This document shows positions 119 to 17,932 of a stretch of 64,000 bases of DNA, piece after piece (within the stretch, counting starts at the first letter, position 1; every line of letters begins with the position of its first letter). Source of the stretch: Escherichia phage vB_EcoM_CRJP21. The translations under genes and the position numbers were made by a program. A model generated the notes under the pieces. That model was not told the origin of the DNA. It did no database searches and was given only the letters and a program-made list of their open reading frames with translations. The stretch is from sequence record OQ708376.1. One strand, 5' to 3'.

Positions 119-454
<336 letters not shown>

Positions 455-455
455 A

Positions 456-638
456 ATGACACACGAAGAATGGATGTCCAAACAGCATAAAGAACATGAC
501 TGCTTTGGGAATGGCATTCGTCAGGTACATTATGATATATTAAGAGATGAAAATCTTTTCAGGTCATATGTTTTGGATACCAGAAAACCCTGGTTTATAT
601 GCGAACTGGCATTTAGAAAGTCAAATAATCAAAACTAA
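456..638 (+). CDS. small hypothetical protein, MTHEEWM family
   Basis: N-terminus MTHEEWM shared with 1127..1291 and 1288..1452; start trimmed from track ORF 438. Confidence 0.45.
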   Translation: MTHEEWMSKQHKEHDCFGNGIRQVHYDILRDENLFRSYVLDTRKPWFICELAFRKSNNQN

Positions 639-654
639 ACAAGGAATACAAAAA

Positions 655-873
655 ATGGAAACAACTTTATTAGAAGTTATTCAATCATTAAAACCTGAAG
701 ATGAGGTTCAAGTACTACTACATGGTTATCGTGTAAAAGGTACTGTGGTTTTAGTCAATGATACAACATTGGTTATTACAGAAACAAACCCATATGATAG
801 TAATCAACTTGCCAATATCCATATCGATATCACTGGAATTATTGGTGTCGGTGTATCTAAAACACTTGCATAA
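655..873 (+). CDS. hypothetical protein
   Basis: track ORF 547..873 trimmed to internal ATG with aaggaa SD. Confidence 0.4.
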   Translation: METTLLEVIQSLKPEDEVQVLLHGYRVKGTVVLVNDTTLVITETNPYDSNQLANIHIDITGIIGVGVSKTLA

Positions 874-906
874 ATCATTAATTCATTATATAATGGGACA
901 TAACAT

Positions 907-1022
<116 letters not shown>

Positions 1023-1026
1023 AATA

Positions 1027-1103
1027 CGGGGTATAGCACAATTGGATAGTGCAAGAGAATTCTAATCTCTAGGTTGGGGGTTCAAGTCCCTCTACCTCGG
1101 CCA
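1027..1103 (+). tRNA. tRNA-Arg (anticodon TCT)
   Basis: acceptor cggggta/tacctcg, T-arm ggggg-ttcaagt-ccctc, anticodon loop attctaa, CCA. Confidence 0.7.
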
Positions 1104-1126
1104 ATTTTAATTAAAGGTTAAAAACC

Positions 1127-1453
<327 letters not shown>

Positions 1454-1461
1454 AAAAAAAG

Positions 1462-1875
<414 letters not shown>

Positions 1876-1935
1876 CTAAATAATTCAGTACTGAGGATAT
1901 TAATATGTTTAAAGATGAACGTCCAGATTTGTAAA

Positions 1936-2066
<131 letters not shown>

Positions 2067-2069
2067 TAC

Positions 2070-2229
<160 letters not shown>

Positions 2230-2244
2230 CAATGCGAGGTATAA

Positions 2245-2502
<258 letters not shown>

Positions 2503-2510
2503 GAATTTAA

Positions 2511-2912
2511 ATGAAAAAGAATGACTTGATCAAAATGCTTCAAGAAATTGACGGCAATCCAGAGATTGTTATTTGGAATGGATACGTCGATGATTATATG
2601 AACATCGAAAAAGGCTTGACTAAAATCACTCTAGTCAAAGAAACCGAACAGTTTCTTCAGGGTGCATTAGAGCACGAATGGTGTGAACGTAACAATACAT
2701 TCGACATTCCAGAAGACCAACGAACCAAGATTGCAGAACGTGCTAAAGAACTGCATAAGAAACGCGAATACGATTTCCAGAACCCATATGTCACTGAAGA
2801 CGAATTCAATCGCTGGTACGGTAAAAAGAAATTGACAAAGTATGTCCTTTCACCTAAACTACGTGGTAAGACTTCACTTGGTGTATTCAACGCCGCAGAC
2901 TTAAACTACTAG
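2511..2912 (+). CDS. hypothetical protein (133 aa)
   Basis: ORF tiling with neighbours. Confidence 0.6.
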   Translation: MKKNDLIKMLQEIDGNPEIVIWNGYVDDYMNIEKGLTKITLVKETEQFLQGALEHEWCERNNTFDIPEDQRTKIAERAKELHKKREYDFQNPYVTEDEFNRWYGKKKLTKYVLSPKLRGKTSLGVFNAADLNY

Positions 2913-2921
2913 CGGGTATTA

Positions 2922-3286
<365 letters not shown>

Positions 3287-3287
3287 T

Positions 3288-3325
<38 letters not shown>

Positions 3326-3344
3326 AGAGGTACTTCGAGTATGC

Positions 3345-3471
<127 letters not shown>

Positions 3472-3531
3472 TACAACCGACAATGACGAAAGAACAGTTA
3501 TCAACATTTATCAACGCAGCATTAGATAAAA

Positions 3532-3563
<32 letters not shown>

Positions 3564-3615
3564 TACCAAGCAGCTTGAAGAACTTTGTAGTGCTGCACCT
3601 ATGCCGACTCTTGGC

Positions 3616-3716
<101 letters not shown>

Positions 3717-3728
3717 TATCTTACTTCT

Positions 3729-3818
<90 letters not shown>

Positions 3819-15088: not shown

Positions 15089-16054
15089 GTGAAAAAGCTT
15101 GATTTAAATACAATTGCCGAAGAAGTTCTGGATGAATGTTTTTCTAATGAAGAAGTCAACACACTAGAAGCCTTAGATTTCGTTGAAGATAAAGATGAAA
15201 ATGAAGGTAAAGTACAAAGCAGTTTCAAATATAATATTACACTTAAGCGACCACCAAATGTTTCCAATGAAGATCTAATTCGTGATATTCAAGCTGGTAT
15301 CAATGTAAAGAAAAACACTGAACTGTTAGTTCGTTACAATTATGGACTTATTATTGATGTAGCAAGTAAATGTACTTGTTATATCCCATTTGAAGATAAG
15401 ATTTCATATGGTGTTGAGGGGTTCATGAGAGCACTAAAAACCTTTGATCTTAATAAGAATGTGAAGTTCATTACCTATGCTTCTTCTAGTATTTACATGA
15501 CAGTTTATAACGAAAGTTCTGACGCTAACTATATGGTACACTTCCCACGTTATATGAGTGTTCATAAGATCAAAGTAAAAAGATTCTGTCAGGAATATAT
15601 GCGTAAACATGGTGTTCGCCCAACTCCTGAAATAATCTCAGAGGGTACTGGGATTGAGATTCAGCATGTTAATAACTGTTTGTTATTTCAAAGCGAATAC
15701 ACTTCTCTGGATGCACCATTAGACGGTGTTACCGATGGTACACTAGGTGACATTATTCATTCACCTGCTTCTGATTTTAACCTCAATGTTGATAGTATTC
15801 GTGCACCTTTACGTTATGCTATCAATGAACTGACTAACGAATTGAGTACTAAAGAACGTGAGATTATCCAGCGTGTTCATGGTCTAGGTGAATATGAACC
15901 TGAAACGCTTCGTGAGATTGCTGATAATGGTTTTGTTGATGATAATGGAAAATATGTTAAATCCCGTTCATCAATACACCGAAAGTACAGTGAAGCTATG
16001 CAAAAGCTTAAGAAGTTAGTACTTGCAAAAGGGTACGAATACGAAGATTTCTAA
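15089..16054 (+). CDS. sigma70-family RNA polymerase sigma factor (GTG start)
   Basis: region 2-like GVEGFMRALKTFDLNKNVKFITYASSSI; region 4.2-like REIIQRVHGLGEYEPETLREIADNGFVDDNGKYVKSRSSIHRKYSEAMQKLKK. Confidence 0.6.
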   Translation: MKKLDLNTIAEEVLDECFSNEEVNTLEALDFVEDKDENEGKVQSSFKYNITLKRPPNVSNEDLIRDIQAGINVKKNTELLVRYNYGLIIDVASKCTCYIPFEDKISYGVEGFMRALKTFDLNKNVKFITYASSSIYMTVYNESSDANYMVHFPRYMSVHKIKVKRFCQEYMRKHGVRPTPEIISEGTGIEIQHVNNCLLFQSEYTSLDAPLDGVTDGTLGDIIHSPASDFNLNVDSIRAPLRYAINELTNELSTKEREIIQRVHGLGEYEPETLREIADNGFVDDNGKYVKSRSSIHRKYSEAMQKLKKLVLAKGYEYEDF

Positions 16055-16059
16055 AGAAC

Positions 16060-16090
16060 AAGGGTTGGCTTATGCCAACCTTTTTTTTAT
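16060..16090 (+). terminator. intrinsic terminator
   Basis: hairpin gggttggc-ttat-gccaacc followed by 8 T. Confidence 0.7.
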
Positions 16091-16109
16091 GGGATGAAGT
16101 AAAAGTTTG

Positions 16110-16650
16110 TGATATAATTATCTTGTACAATTCTGTTGGCATGATATTCATGTACCTGATCCACTCGAAAACGTAGAGGGCAGTTGAGCAGTCCGACAGT
16201 GCGAACAGCAAAAGAAACCCGTTAGATGTGGGCATAGTTTGAACCCCTCACGGCAATGCGGCTGTATAAAGAACCACGTTAGGATAGCTGGTGGTTCCTT
16301 GATAGACATATAAGGATAACACCTTACGAATTATCTAAGGGAGAGTTATCGAATTTTGTACAGGAAAGTTGCGTCCAAAATTTGAGTACTCACATTAAGT
16401 ATTTGATTGCATAGATACTTAATGAAGATACACTATGTTTAAAAGTGTAGACCGTCATATGAAACTGAAGTAGAGAGAAACAGGATGACCCGCTTTCGCA
16501 CTCGTTATGAGTAATCTTCAATGCAATAGCTCTGATACCATCAGCGTCAAATTTCCCTCCTTGTGGGGGGAAGAAAAATCCCTTCCTCAAATCCCGTCAA
16601 TATTAAAAGTCCTTGACAGTTATTAATCATTCGCGTAGAATACGTAGTAT
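16110..16650 (+). ncRNA. candidate non-coding RNA region (ORF-free, follows extended -10 promoter)
   Basis: TGaTATAAT at 16110-16118; about 540 bp with no credible ORF; GC-richer than surroundings. Confidence 0.25.
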
Positions 16651-16705
16651 TAGAAGCGAACAGACATCTCGAAGAGATGGATGATTAACCATTAAGGAAT
16701 ATCAA

Positions 16706-16915
16706 ATGAATTCAGTAATCTTTTTAGTAGTCGCTTTCTCTGTTAATTCCGGTGTACAAATAACCCCAATGAATTCCATGAATCAATGCATAGCAGTACG
16801 TGATAGTACATACGAACAAGTAAACAAAGATATTTGGATTACAGTTAGTAAAGAACAAATGTGGTGTTACAATAGTAATACTAACACAAAGCTTATTGTA
16901 GGACAAACTCAATGA
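16706..16915 (+). CDS. hypothetical secreted small protein
   Basis: ORF after TTGACA-N17-TAGAAT promoter at about 16614-16642; N-terminal hydrophobic. Confidence 0.55.
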   Translation: MNSVIFLVVAFSVNSGVQITPMNSMNQCIAVRDSTYEQVNKDIWITVSKEQMWCYNSNTNTKLIVGQTQ

Positions 16916-17143: not shown

Positions 17144-17932
17144 ATGAGCACTATAGATGAACTGATTCGACGGAATTCAAAATATTACCAACCATCAGAA
17201 ATTGTAGGTAACATTACCAAATCAGAGTTTGGTCCAAATACTCGAAAACTCATTCATGTAATGTCACGTGATGGCTTTAAATGTGATTGTTGCGGTGAAT
17301 CTAATGTAGTATTCACTTTACACAAGCACAGTACTAAAGATCGTTATAAATTCAGACCTTATGTACTTAAAGGGAAACGCCTTGTACGCATGACGTTAGA
17401 CCATAATGTACTGGACTGTCTTCAGGGCGGTAATGATAAAGAGAACATGACTGCACTGTGTGAAGATTGTAACGCATTACGCCAGCATAAGTTTGCTGAA
17501 TACAGTGAGTTTAAACACTGGTATAATAACGCGGATCGTTCAATCGAGCCTGACGTTAACTACTGCTTCATTGAGTACATTAAGAATGCCAAAGATACAT
17601 ACATTCTTAAATCAATGTCACCTATTACCGTGTTTCCTGAGAACCTATTCACTACATTAAAGAATAGTTTTATTGTAGGTGATATTGATGCATTCAAGTA
17701 TTTTGACAAAGGTGCAAAACATTTTGAAATTCAATGTCTTAGTACTGCACTATGTGAACTCATTAAAATTTACATAAAAGAGTATTTGGGTATTGACAAT
17801 GTACGTGTACCAGAGTATACTTTTTCTATTGAATTCGATTGTGAATCAATCAAAGAGTTTGGAATTCTTTTCAATAAACAAATAGAACTTGCAATTCAAA
17901 ACGAAATCAAGTACTATACTACTAACATTTAA
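17144..17932 (+). CDS. HNH endonuclease (possible free-standing homing endonuclease)
   Basis: CDCCGE...LDHNVLDCLQGGNDKENMTALCEDCNALRQHK, an HNH-type motif. Confidence 0.65.
   Translation: MSTIDELIRRNSKYYQPSEIVGNITKSEFGPNTRKLIHVMSRDGFKCDCCGESNVVFTLHKHSTKDRYKFRPYVLKGKRLVRMTLDHNVLDCLQGGNDKENMTALCEDCNALRQHKFAEYSEFKHWYNNADRSIEPDVNYCFIEYIKNAKDTYILKSMSPITVFPENLFTTLKNSFIVGDIDAFKYFDKGAKHFEIQCLSTALCELIKIYIKEYLGIDNVRVPEYTFSIEFDCESIKEFGILFNKQIELAIQNEIKYYTTNI

What the first reader, a model, noticed from the sequence alone, without database searches (positions are those of the whole stretch)
16110..16650. ORF-free ~540 bp downstream of an extended -10 promoter: candidate structured or non-coding RNA
After the sigma-factor terminator there is a TGaTATAAT element (16110-16118) followed by about 540 bp with no credible ORF and locally higher GC. 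A second promoter (TTGACA-N17-TAGAAT) lies at its 3' end for the next gene. Such a long, promoter-fed non-coding stretch in a tightly packed phage genome suggests a functional RNA or a remnant of an excised mobile element.
Basis: seen in the sequence. Interest (0 to 1): 0.45.

Follow-up and report, generated by a model that had tools for sequence, protein, structure and literature searches.

The report
New large pseudoknotted jumbo-phage RNA family
The gene-free gap after the phage sigma-factor gene encodes a roughly 480-base, intricately folded non-coding RNA from an apparently undescribed family that occurs in at least four copies per genome in RaK2-like jumbo phages and singly in some prophages, and whose function is unknown.

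Summary
Window 16055-16705 has no ORF, is locally GC-richer, and lies between a terminator and an extended -10 promoter on one side and a TTGACA-N17-TAGAAT site on the other.

The gap is neither junk nor a mobile-element scar. It is one copy of a conserved RNA unit in an Asteriusvirus genome (100% identical to phage slurp01). About 120 homologous copies were recovered:
- at least four per genome, at fixed loci, in RaK2-like jumbo phages
- single copies next to the integrase and CI repressor in enterobacterial temperate elements
- one in an E. coli defence island

On 57 non-redundant sequences, 14 helices are 83-100% paired, against 13-71% for slid controls. Nearly all have compensatory changes. 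Five are pseudoknots or long-range pairings.

No Rfam 15 family matches, no paper searched describes it, and there is no coding signal.

In at least 30 loci the RNA faces a convergent gene, so it is a stand-alone RNA rather than only a leader.

Two identical CGUCA boxes changed in concert in three lineages, which suggests a shared partner.

Function is unknown. My best guess is a trans-acting RNA or RNP, possibly a ribozyme or a self-assembling RNA. Expression has not been shown.

The parts
16060..16090 (+). Intrinsic terminator of the upstream sigma-factor gene (10-bp stem plus T-run)
   Evidence: sequence
16090..16118 (+). Promoter of the RNA: -35-like TGGGAT (16090-95), 17-nt spacer, extended -10 TGATATAAT (TG 16110-11, TATAAT 16113-18)
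   Evidence: The same architecture (TGGGAC/TGAAAC/TGGAAC, about 15-17 nt, then TGnTATAAT or TATACT) lies upstream of nearly all 57 non-redundant copies, including the bacterial ones.
16125..16610 (+). Core of the structured RNA. The 5' end is inferred to lie about 7 nt after the -10 element. The 3' limit is the end of family-wide conservation after box 2.
   Evidence: nhmmer 16153-16613, E 4e-124. CM R1 matches 16140-16347 at 197 bits, and this is the only copy in the window. Frequent G-U pairs fix the + strand as the RNA strand.
16133..16202 (+). H1 (16133-39 with 16193-99), which forms a pseudoknot with the 3-bp stem 16188-90/16200-02 (PK3). It encloses H2 (hairpin 16140-52, sequence free but pairing kept) and H3 (16156-66/16176-83, conserved loop GAAAACGUA).
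   Evidence: H1 and H2: RNAalifold pair counts. H3: 95.4% paired, 7 of 8 pairs compensatory. Stem 16188-90/16200-02: 100% paired, UA32/CG14/AU11.
16205..16265 (+). H4 (16205-09/16261-65) enclosing H5 (16219-22/16250-53). The H5 tip is variable and is replaced or absent in some copies.
   Evidence: H4: 100% paired, with AU37/UA18, GC43/CG12 and UA34/AU23. H5: 100% paired.
16256..16309 (+). PK4: long-range helix AUG 16256-58 with CAU 16307-09
   Evidence: 98.8% paired, GC46/AU10; found by an all-against-all scan
16271..16343 (+). H6 hairpin (16271-77/16291-97), PK1 (H6 loop 16282-87 with 16331-36), H7 hairpin (16311-15/16322-26), and the near-invariant CUAAGGGAG (16335-43)
   Evidence: H6: 7 of 7 pairs compensatory. 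PK1: 5 of 6 pairs compensatory (GC26/UA16/AU5; CG29/AU20). H7: 3 of 4 pairs compensatory.
16353..16383 (+). Movable hairpin module with apical loop U(G/A)UACAAU-like. In the window it sits at 'site A'. In relatives it is at site A, at site B (the tip of H14), at both, or at neither.
   Evidence: alignments; inverted repeat I1
16393..16527 (+). H9 (16393-402/16415-24) and PK2: the H9 apical loop 16406-12 (AUUGCAU) pairs with 16521-27 (AUGCAAU)
   Evidence: PK2: 99.7% paired, 7 of 7 pairs compensatory. H9: 10 of 10 pairs compensatory.
16429..16449 (+). H10 hairpin (16429-33/16445-49)
   Evidence: 92.4% paired, 5 of 5 pairs compensatory
16454..16520 (+). PK5 (16454-58 GUCAU with 16485-89 AUGAC in the H13 loop), H12 (16466-70/16516-20), H13 (16473-77/16493-97, conserved loop AAACAG..ACCCG) and H14 (16500-02/16510-12)
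   Evidence: PK5: 100% paired, CG44/UA10. H12: 98.9% paired, 5 of 5 pairs compensatory. H13: 100% paired. H14.
16534..16549 (+). Arm X (16534-38) and box 1 (CGUCA 16545-49), forming a small hairpin
   Evidence: Read by eye from the alignment. Counted column by column it is poorly paired because of register shifts.
16552..16573 (+). C-run/G-run hairpin; the G-run is invariant
   Evidence: 94.6% paired, but only C-G to U-G changes, so there is no true covariation
16595..16599 (+). Box 2 (CGUCA), always identical to box 1
   Evidence: 55 copies CGUCA/CGUCA, 1 CGACA/CGACA, 1 CUUCA/CUUCA, plus 6 variant-2 copies CGAAG/CGAAG
16611..16705 (+). 3' extension and leader of the next gene: TTGACA (16613-18)-N17-TAGAAT (16636-41), hairpin 16630-60, hairpin AUCUC-GAA-GAGAU (16666-78), and RBS TAAGGAA (16693-99) ahead of the ATG at 16706
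   Evidence: Homologous GAC-hairpin-GG elements lie downstream of many copies. Whether this belongs to the RNA or to a separate transcript is unresolved.

Best explanation
**What it is.** Window ~16090-16700 is a self-contained gene for a large, multi-pseudoknotted non-coding RNA on the + strand, with a core of about 480 nt at 16125-16610. It belongs to a family I could not find described anywhere. It is driven by its own sigma-70-type promoter (TGGGAT-N17-TGnTATAAT).

**Shown**
- Sequence conservation across RaK2-like jumbo phage genera.
- At least four anciently diverged paralogs per genome at fixed, dispersed loci.
- Single copies in enterobacterial temperate elements and in a defence island.
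- Fourteen helices supported by compensatory changes, five of them pseudoknots or long-range pairings.
- No coding signal and no Rfam match.

**Inferred**
- The RNA is made early by host RNA polymerase, from the promoter type.
- It acts as a free RNA in trans rather than only as a leader, because in many loci a terminator and a convergent gene follow it.
- Its two identical CGUCA boxes are read by one common partner, because they changed in concert three times. Candidates are a protein with two binding sites, or the same complementary strand (arm X) within one molecule or between molecules.

**Most likely mode of action (a guess).** It is a folded RNA scaffold or RNP, or a ribozyme, working in phage-host or phage-phage conflict or in phage nucleic-acid metabolism. 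Within the RNA-gene reading I weight the options roughly as follows: protein-binding scaffold or decoy 40%, ribozyme 20%, self-assembling RNA 15%, other 25%.
For: **Identity and distribution**
- The window is 100% identical to phage slurp01, and 61-78 phage records match.
- Phage 121Q has four copies, at about 90, 193, 248 and 327 kb, all on the + strand.
- nhmmer gave 120 hits in the loci fetched, of which 98 were full length and 57 were non-redundant at 96% identity.
- Among the 50,697 phage records searched, the hits listed and the organism tallies are RaK2-like jumbo phages.

**Structure**
- 5' domain: 90.7% of cells paired against 33-43% for slid controls, and 28 of 35 pairs compensatory.
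- Central and 3' domain: 93.4% paired against 37-47% for slid controls, and 30 of 32 pairs compensatory, including PK2 with 7 of 7.
- H12 and H13.
- PK3 and PK4: 99.4% paired.
- PK5: 100% paired.

**Other evidence**
- Strand: G-U pairs are frequent, for example GU 16 of 57 at one pair.
- Promoter conserved upstream of nearly all copies.
- Stand-alone status: 17 loci have a convergent baseplate gene downstream, and 13 loci have a convergent CI-like repressor downstream.
- Not coding.
- No Rfam match at gathering thresholds or at E<=10.
- Boxes change in concert.
Against: - No transcript data exist for any phage carrying the family. Expression, the RNA ends and processing are all inferred.
- The window copy has no obvious terminator, so it may be co-transcribed with the downstream small ORFs.
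- About 60% of copies have a terminator-like hairpin inside the conserved region, which a single mature RNA does not explain.
- No partner protein was found: the neighbouring genes differ between loci.
- The literature check was limited to open-access full text.
Confidence: 0.85

Rival explanations
1. It is a giant cis-acting leader, such as a riboswitch, an attenuator or a processive-antitermination element, that controls the genes downstream on the same strand.
For: In the window and in many loci a gene follows on the same strand after a conserved hairpin and RBS. About 60% of copies carry a terminator-like hairpin with a U-run inside the unit, followed by further conserved sequence. The unit sits directly after a strong promoter, as phage put and nut sites do.
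Against: In 17 loci the unit is followed by a bidirectional terminator and a convergent baseplate gene. In 13 loci it faces a convergent CI-like repressor gene. The downstream genes are unrelated to each other: a hypothetical protein plus a Dam methylase, an ADP-ribosylglycohydrolase, small ORFs plus an HNH-like gene, or none. The context-B copies, which always have a downstream gene, lack the internal terminator.
Confidence: 0.12
2. It is an origin-of-replication primer RNA. A promoter-driven structured transcript would form a persistent R-loop, as ColE1 RNA II or the T4 oriF/oriG transcripts do, giving the 350-kb genome several dispersed origins.
For: There are at least four dispersed copies per genome, all on one strand in 121Q and Serratia phage BF. 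Each has its own early-type promoter. An invariant G-run lies near the 3' end. In one bacterial element the RNA lies next to two ParB/RepB-like genes.
Against: Five covarying pseudoknots and near-invariant junctions are far more than known primer RNAs need. In the temperate elements the RNA lies between the integrase and cI, not beside replication genes. There is no GC-skew inflection at the locus. No plasmid carries it.
Confidence: 0.06
3. It is a self-processing ribozyme or a mobile RNA element, such as an intron-like element, with the two identical boxes as its cleavage or ligation sites.
For: The size, the pseudoknot density and the invariant purine-rich junctions are typical of large ribozymes. 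The two identical boxes flank a dispensable segment. An HNH-like gene lies 440 bp downstream in the window.
Against: It interrupts no gene, so there are no exons to join. It does not match the group I, group II, RNase P or any small-ribozyme model. The paralogs are old and positionally fixed, not recently transposed. There are no flanking repeats.
Confidence: 0.07
4. It is a DNA-level element, degraded coding sequence or a mobile-element scar, with no RNA function.
For: The repeated CGTCA boxes and the conserved promoter-like motifs could be protein-binding sites on DNA.
Against: Compensatory changes keep Watson-Crick and G-U pairing in 14 helices, on one strand only. There is no ORF and no period-3 signal. 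There are no terminal inverted repeats or target-site duplication.
Confidence: 0.02

Closest known systems
ROOL and GOLLD RNAs (large 'ornate' RNAs of phages and prophages; Rfam families; cryo-EM shows homo-oligomeric cages, PMC12286853)
   Same: They are several hundred nucleotides long, have many pseudoknots, are carried by phages and prophages, and have no known function. This makes them the best analogy for the kind of object this is.
   Different: There is no sequence or covariance-model similarity. The hosts differ: Enterobacterales and their jumbo phages here, against Bacillota and rumen or lake metagenomes. This RNA occurs as at least four paralogs per genome and is not adjacent to tRNA genes. 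Self-assembly was not tested.
The four 'putative lncRNAs' of jumbo phage PA5oct, a distant relative of 121Q/RaK2 (PMC7318152)
   Same: They are ORF-free, actively transcribed regions of 236-619 nt in a related jumbo phage. Two of them make up about 5% of phage reads. This is a precedent that such phages express abundant long ncRNAs.
   Different: They are not homologous. nhmmer with filters off found nothing, CM R1 found nothing, and the conserved motifs are absent.
ColE1 RNA II and the T4 oriF/oriG primer transcripts
   Same: They are promoter-driven transcripts, RNA II being several hundred nucleotides and structured. T4-like phages also have several dispersed origins.
   Different: This RNA is far more intricately folded and conserved. 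No antisense partner, origin context or plasmid occurrence was found.
Group I introns of T4-like phages
   Same: They are large pseudoknotted RNAs in T4-related phages, often with HNH or GIY endonuclease genes nearby.
   Different: This RNA is not inserted in a gene, has its own promoter, does not match RF00028, and its helix topology does not map onto P3-P9.
Protein-sequestering RNAs (6S, CsrB/RsmZ) and phage RNA decoys (pseudo-ToxI, RNA anti-CRISPRs)
   Same: A trans-acting RNA that carries repeated short recognition boxes for one partner is the mode of action I favour.
   Different: Those RNAs are simpler and their boxes are known. Here only two or three boxes exist and they sit in a large rigid fold. 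No partner has been identified.

Membership tests
Any Rfam 15 family (4227 covariance models) | Score at or above the family's gathering threshold, or at least a consistent sub-threshold match | tested here: not met
   Only tRNAs reach the gathering threshold in the window. At E<=10 on 16000-16760 and on the largest bacterial copy, only scattered hits of 12-20 bits to unrelated small RNAs appear.
Group I intron | Interrupts a host gene, with flanking exons that restore an ORF, tRNA or rRNA | tested here: not met
   It lies between a terminator plus promoter and the next gene. The upstream and downstream genes differ between paralogs.
Group I intron | P3-P9 catalytic core detectable by RF00028 | tested here: not met
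   No hit even at E<=10.
Bacterial RNase P RNA | Match to RF00010 or RF00011; P4 pseudoknot formed by the CR-I and CR-V conserved regions | tested here: not met
   No Rfam hit. The ACAG..ACCCGCUU stretch that superficially resembles CR-V lies in the H13 hairpin and pairs locally (H13 and PK5). My recollection of the CR sequences was only a lead.
tmRNA | tRNA-like ends plus a tag-peptide reading frame | tested here: not met
   ARAGORN finds no tmRNA in the window, and there is no Rfam hit.
ROOL / GOLLD / OLE / HEARO / raiA (large bacterial ncRNA classes) | Match to the class covariance model | tested here: not met
ROOL / GOLLD-type ornate phage RNAs (as a functional kind) | Homo-oligomeric assembly of the RNA | not testable with these tools
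   This needs native gels, SEC-MALS or cryo-EM. Only the size, the pseudoknot density and the phage or prophage carriage are shared.
Riboswitch or cis-regulatory leader | Always upstream of, and co-oriented with, the regulated gene(s) | tested here: not met
   17 loci have a convergent baseplate gene, preceded by a terminator in the copies inspected, and 13 loci have a convergent CI-like repressor.
Protein-coding gene or pseudogene | A conserved reading frame or period-3 conservation | tested here: not met
   6-12 stop codons per frame in the window copy; no period-3 signal.
Transposable element, MITE or excision scar | Terminal inverted repeats, target-site duplication, or variable occupancy | tested here: not met
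   Only internal hairpins were found. The locus is occupied in all 33 records that cover at least 80% of the query. The paralogs are about 70% identical and positionally conserved.
PA5oct lncRNAs | Sequence or structure homology | tested here: not met
Origin-primer RNA (ColE1 RNA II-like) | RNA-DNA hybrid formation and initiation of DNA synthesis at its 3' end | not testable with these tools
   The only indirect evidence is the absence of a GC-skew change at the locus and the absence from plasmids.

The most novel reading that the evidence does not exclude
This is a new class of ornate, five-fold pseudoknotted RNA that is a catalytic or self-assembling RNA machine needed by RaK2-like jumbo phages, which is why each genome keeps several ancient, locus-fixed paralogs. 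Its twin CGUCA boxes would mediate strand exchange or binding of one partner. The single copies in prophages and in a defence island would then be mimics used in conflicts between mobile elements.
Probability: 0.2. Interest if true: 0.92.

Novelty: categorically new. Interest (0 to 1): 0.8.

Why it matters
Large, intricately folded, conserved RNAs are rare. Historically they have turned out to be ribozymes or the cores of major RNPs: the ribosome, RNase P, self-splicing introns, tmRNA, and more recently the ROOL and GOLLD cages.

This family has practical advantages for study:
- It lies in culturable E. coli phages (121Q, PBECO4, slurp01, phAPEC6).
- It is supported by unusually clean covariation.
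- It has natural variants: paralogs, a movable module and concerted box changes.

It is therefore directly testable by genetics, pull-downs and cryo-EM.

It also reassigns ORF-free gaps of about 650 bp that are left blank, or filled with spurious 'hypothetical proteins', in dozens of deposited jumbo-phage genomes. It links lytic jumbo phages, temperate phages and a defence island through a shared RNA gene.

Tried and rejected
- **Rfam.** Searches at gathering thresholds and at E<=10 found nothing relevant.
- **PA5oct lncRNAs.** I tested them for homology in the hope of borrowing their RNA-seq evidence. They are not homologous.
- **TGTACAAT motif.** I suspected it was a phage promoter motif. 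It is not enriched: 8 matches against 7.7 expected.
- **Single-sequence folding.** The z-scores were uninformative, -0.9 for the + strand and -2.2 for the - strand. Only comparative analysis resolved the structure and the strand.
- **RNAalifold's long-range closure.** The proposed pairing of GAC/GAG (16306-08, 16341-43) with box 2 was dropped. It shows no covariation, C16307 pairs with G16258 instead, and the RaK2 and L082 variants do not compensate.
- **RNAalifold's 3-bp H11.** The pairing 16454-56/16463-65 is superseded by PK5.
- **Arm X/box 1 hairpin.** It looks convincing by eye but scores poorly column by column because of register shifts, so I list it as tentative.
- **Hammerhead-like words** (CAGAUGAG, GAAAC, GUC). 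Rejected, because the would-be U4 position is A or U and no model matches.
- **Resemblances to RNase P conserved regions and to boxA (the NusB/NusE antitermination site).** I noted these from memory and they were not supported.
- **A conserved partner protein next to the RNA.** None was found. The only recurrent shared neighbour, in one context plus one MAG, is an ADP-ribosylglycohydrolase.
- **Plasmids.** No hits.
- **Literature.** Seven full-text searches found no description, and nothing was found in the five papers I searched for it (PA5oct).

Full report
**1. Observation**

The window is part of an Asteriusvirus jumbo phage. The finding region is 100% identical to Escherichia phage vB_Eco_slurp01 and to SP27, and 99% identical to 121Q and PBECO4. 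The ORF at 15089-16054 carries Sigma70 regions 2, 3 and 4. It ends with a 10-bp-stem intrinsic terminator at 16060-16083 followed by a T-run.

TGATATAAT is at 16110-16118. TTGACA-N17-TAGAAT is at 16613-16641 and matches 11 of 12 positions. Between 16055 and the ATG at 16706 there is no credible ORF:
- Each of the six frames of the core has 6-12 stop codons.
- The longest start-to-stop ORFs are 53-75 aa, all on the minus strand.
- None is conserved, and conservation shows no period-3 signal.

GC content rises to 0.44, against about 0.30-0.36 in the flanks.

**2. What it is: conservation and copy number**

BLASTN of the gap finds it in 61-78 phage records. In a later search with a bacterial copy, the records listed and the organism tallies were RaK2-like jumbo phages, out of 50,697 phage records. 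These phages infect Escherichia, Salmonella, Klebsiella, Erwinia, Serratia, Yersinia, Pectobacterium, Cronobacter and 'Xanthomonas'. The region is unannotated, or overlaid with short 'hypothetical proteins', in all of them.

The core at 16155-16606 keeps about 70% identity in other genera, which is unusual for an intergenic region. Each genome shows several matching places. A second copy in phage ph0011 lies in another 685-bp ORF-free gap.

I then scanned three collections with conserved patterns: IMG/VR, bacterial genomes and metagenomes. nhmmer on the fetched loci gave 120 copies, of which 98 were full length, 79 unique and 57 non-redundant at 96% identity.

Phage 121Q has four copies at about 90, 193, 248 and 327 kb, and Serratia phage BF has four at about 30, 175, 259 and 335 kb, all on the + strand. 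Only one copy lies in this window, by BLAST and by covariance model R1, which matches 16140-16347 at 197 bits with E 5e-55.

Paralogs group by locus across genera rather than by genome, so they are old duplicates kept at fixed positions. The recurring contexts are:
- after the sigma factor (this copy)
- upstream of a hypothetical protein, a Dam-type methylase and a cytidylyltransferase
- between the Mre11/Rad50-like genes and a convergent baseplate gene
- upstream of an ADP-ribosylglycohydrolase

**3. It is an RNA with an elaborate fold**

I measured base-pairing on three alignments of the 57 non-redundant sequences. In each case I compared the proposed structure with versions in which the 3' partners were slid by 1-3 columns.

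| Region | Alignment | Cells paired | Slid controls | Compensatory pairs | Covariation score (slid) |
|---|---|---|---|---|---|
| 5' domain | A3 | 90.7% | 33-43% | 28 of 35 | 0.49 (0.06-0.08) |
| Central and 3' domain | A5 | 93.4% | 37-47% | 30 of 32 | 0.67 (about 0.1) |
| H12 and H13 | A4 | 98.9% and 100% | | 5 of 5 and 3 of 5 | |

In both domain tests, 0 of 500 shuffles reached the observed percentage paired or covariation score.

Five interactions are pseudoknots or long-range pairings:
- **PK1**: the H6 loop 16282-87 with 16331-36. Pair types include GC26/UA16/AU5 and CG29/AU20.
- **PK2**: the H9 apical loop 16406-12 with 16521-27. It is 99.7% paired and 7 of 7 pairs are compensatory. Variants include AUUGUAU/AUACAAU, AUUGCAU/AUGCAAU, UUCAUGU/ACAUGAA, GUCGAAU/AUUCGAC, ACUGUAU/AUACAGU and CUUGAAU/AUUCAAG.
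- **PK3**: H1 (16133-39 with 16193-99) lies in the loop of the stem 16188-90/16200-02, which is 100% paired with UA32/CG14/AU11.
- **PK4**: AUG 16256-58 with CAU 16307-09, GC46/AU10.
- **PK5**: GUCAU 16454-58 with AUGAC 16485-89 inside the H13 loop, 100% paired.

G-U pairs are common, for example 16 of 57 sequences at one PK1 pair. They would be A-C mismatches on the other strand, so the + strand is the RNA.

Peripheral elements behave as in other large RNAs:
- H2 keeps its pairing with an unrelated sequence.
- The tip of H5 is swapped or deleted in some copies.
- A hairpin module with a conserved apical loop, U(G/A)UACAAU, sits at site A (window 16353-83), at site B (the tip of H14), at both, or at neither.

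**4. Promoter, ends and context**

Nearly every copy, bacterial ones included, has the same promoter: TGGGAC, TGAAAC or TGGAAC, then about 15-17 nt, then TGnTATAAT or TATACT. In the window this is TGGGAT at 16090-95 and TGATATAAT at 16110-18. It is the 'TGAAACG -35' promoter class noted for phages CBB and GAP32 (PMC5259590). The inferred start is near 16125, but it has not been mapped.

Family-wide conservation continues beyond box 2. It includes a hairpin whose loop is AACGAAGUGA and a GAC-hairpin-GG element. After these comes one of two arrangements:
- an RBS and a gene on the same strand, or
- a strong bidirectional terminator, as seen in the copies inspected among the 17 loci that have a convergent baseplate gene.

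In the window the corresponding stretch is 16611-16700. I cannot tell whether it is the tail of the RNA or the 5' UTR of a separate transcript.

About 60% of copies, but not this one, carry a terminator-like hairpin with a U-run between box 1 and the G-run hairpin.

**5. Outside jumbo phages**

Nine of the ten bacterial-genome loci fetched are real copies. They come from Serratia, Citrobacter, Enterobacter, Silvania and Buttiauxella, among others.

In most of these, and in similar metagenome loci, the RNA lies just downstream of an integrase and faces a convergent CI-like repressor. The integrase is a large serine recombinase in 10 loci. Beyond the repressor come a Cro-like HTH protein and a 286-aa protein. 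In two Serratia loci the RNA instead lies near a serine recombinase and two ParB/RepB-like genes.

Two of 5,426 complete E. coli genomes carry a copy. In strain LR-29-1 it lies in a 1.4-kb ORF-free gap of a small island beside ffs (the SRP RNA gene). That island also holds the candidate defence system PDC-M45. No plasmid has the RNA.

Six metagenome loci form a 'variant-2' subfamily with the same 3' domain and a diverged 5' domain.

**6. How it probably works**

*Shown.* Selection acts on a complex RNA fold, the promoter is conserved, and the RNA is independent of any particular neighbouring gene.

*Inferred.* It is a stand-alone, trans-acting RNA. A pure leader role is contradicted by the 30 loci in which it faces a convergent gene.

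The most concrete mechanistic clue is the pair of boxes CGUCA(A/G) at 16545-49 and 16595-99. They are identical in all 57 sequences. They changed together in three lineages: CGACA twice in L082, CUUCA twice in RaK2, and CGAAG twice in all six variant-2 RNAs. Box 1 pairs locally with arm X (16534-38), and X could equally pair with box 2. The boxes are therefore read by one common partner. That partner could be a protein with two binding sites, a switch within the molecule, or a strand swap between molecules.

The biochemical function is unknown. My ranking within the RNA-gene reading is protein-binding scaffold or decoy, then ribozyme, then self-assembling RNA.

The rival explanations are a cis leader or antiterminator (0.12), a self-processing or mobile ribozyme (0.07), an origin-primer RNA (0.06), and a DNA element, pseudogene or scar (0.02). 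The rivals section gives the evidence for and against each.

**7. Comparison with known families**

No Rfam 15 family matches. The defining features of several families were tested and not met: group I intron, RNase P RNA, tmRNA, riboswitch or leader, transposable element, and protein-coding gene (see the membership table).

The closest analogues in kind are ROOL and GOLLD. They too are ornate, phage- or prophage-borne and of unknown function, and they form cages (PMC12286853). They are not homologous to this RNA.

The related jumbo phage PA5oct expresses four long ncRNAs, two of them at about 5% of phage reads (PMC7318152). These are not homologous either.

**8. Novelty and verdict**

Seven full-text searches found no description. 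Nor did the five papers I searched for it (PA5oct). I therefore rate it a new RNA class. The limits are that only open-access text and Rfam 15 were checked.

- Confidence that this is a genuine structured-RNA gene: about 0.85-0.9.
- Confidence in any specific function: low.
- Interest: 0.8.

Noticed in passing
window 141-3808: A cluster of seven tRNA genes (Gly, Ser x2, Arg, Met, Asn, Thr) about 12 kb upstream of the RNA. The slurp01 record annotates one of the Ser tRNAs with a different anticodon (act) from the one ARAGORN calls here (gct).
   Followed up: no
window 17144-17932: A 262-aa ORF with a CxxC...HN...CxxC motif. It is annotated 'HNH endonuclease' in phage ph0011 but has no Pfam hit here. 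It lies 440 bp downstream of the RNA, and homologues (cluster 10) recur near 15 copies.
   Followed up: partly
L111, L132, L129, L105, L139, L152 (metagenome contigs): A 'variant-2' subfamily. The 3' domain is conserved (GACCGUUGC..GAGAAACAGGGCAACCCGCUUCCG, G-run hairpin), both boxes read CGAAG, and the 5' domain is so diverged that CM R1 misses it.
   Followed up: partly
L154 (E. coli LR-29-1, NZ_AP027515.1 3465142-3493515); RNA at L154:13958-14592: A full-length copy sits in a roughly 10-kb island beside ffs. The island also carries IS3, integrase fragments, a resolvase and the candidate defence system PDC-M45 (dual-OB and DUF488 proteins, next to a DUF4326 gene).
   Followed up: partly
Downstream of many copies, e.g. 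L073:6773-6900 and L007:1982-2136; window equivalent 16620-16680: Two recurrent elements follow the core. One is a hairpin with outer stem GAAUU/AAUUC and conserved loop AACGAAGUGA. The other is AAAAUUCUUUGAC-(covarying 4-5 bp hairpin, GNA loop)-GGCAAAUC, placed just before the RBS or a terminator. It may be a separate conserved UTR element or the tail of the RNA.
   Followed up: partly
Context-B copies, e.g. L012, L017, L133, L140 (upstream flank): A GC-rich hairpin followed by a T-run lies between the -10 element and the body of the RNA, so a terminator-like structure sits at the very 5' end of the transcript.
   Followed up: no
L073, L058, L121, L068, L009, L144, L093 (downstream gene) and L078:990-2034: An ADP-ribosylglycohydrolase gene (Pfam E 1e-75) directly follows one paralog in several jumbo phages. 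A 28%-identical homologue lies 3.4 kb from the RNA in an Enterobacteriaceae MAG. This is the only protein shared between the jumbo-phage and the bacterial or temperate neighbourhoods.
   Followed up: partly
Deposited records, e.g. PP886230.1, PQ330092.1, OR699282.2, PQ390715.1: Several GenBank records annotate three or four 'hypothetical protein' CDSs across this RNA locus. These are very probably spurious calls.
   Followed up: no
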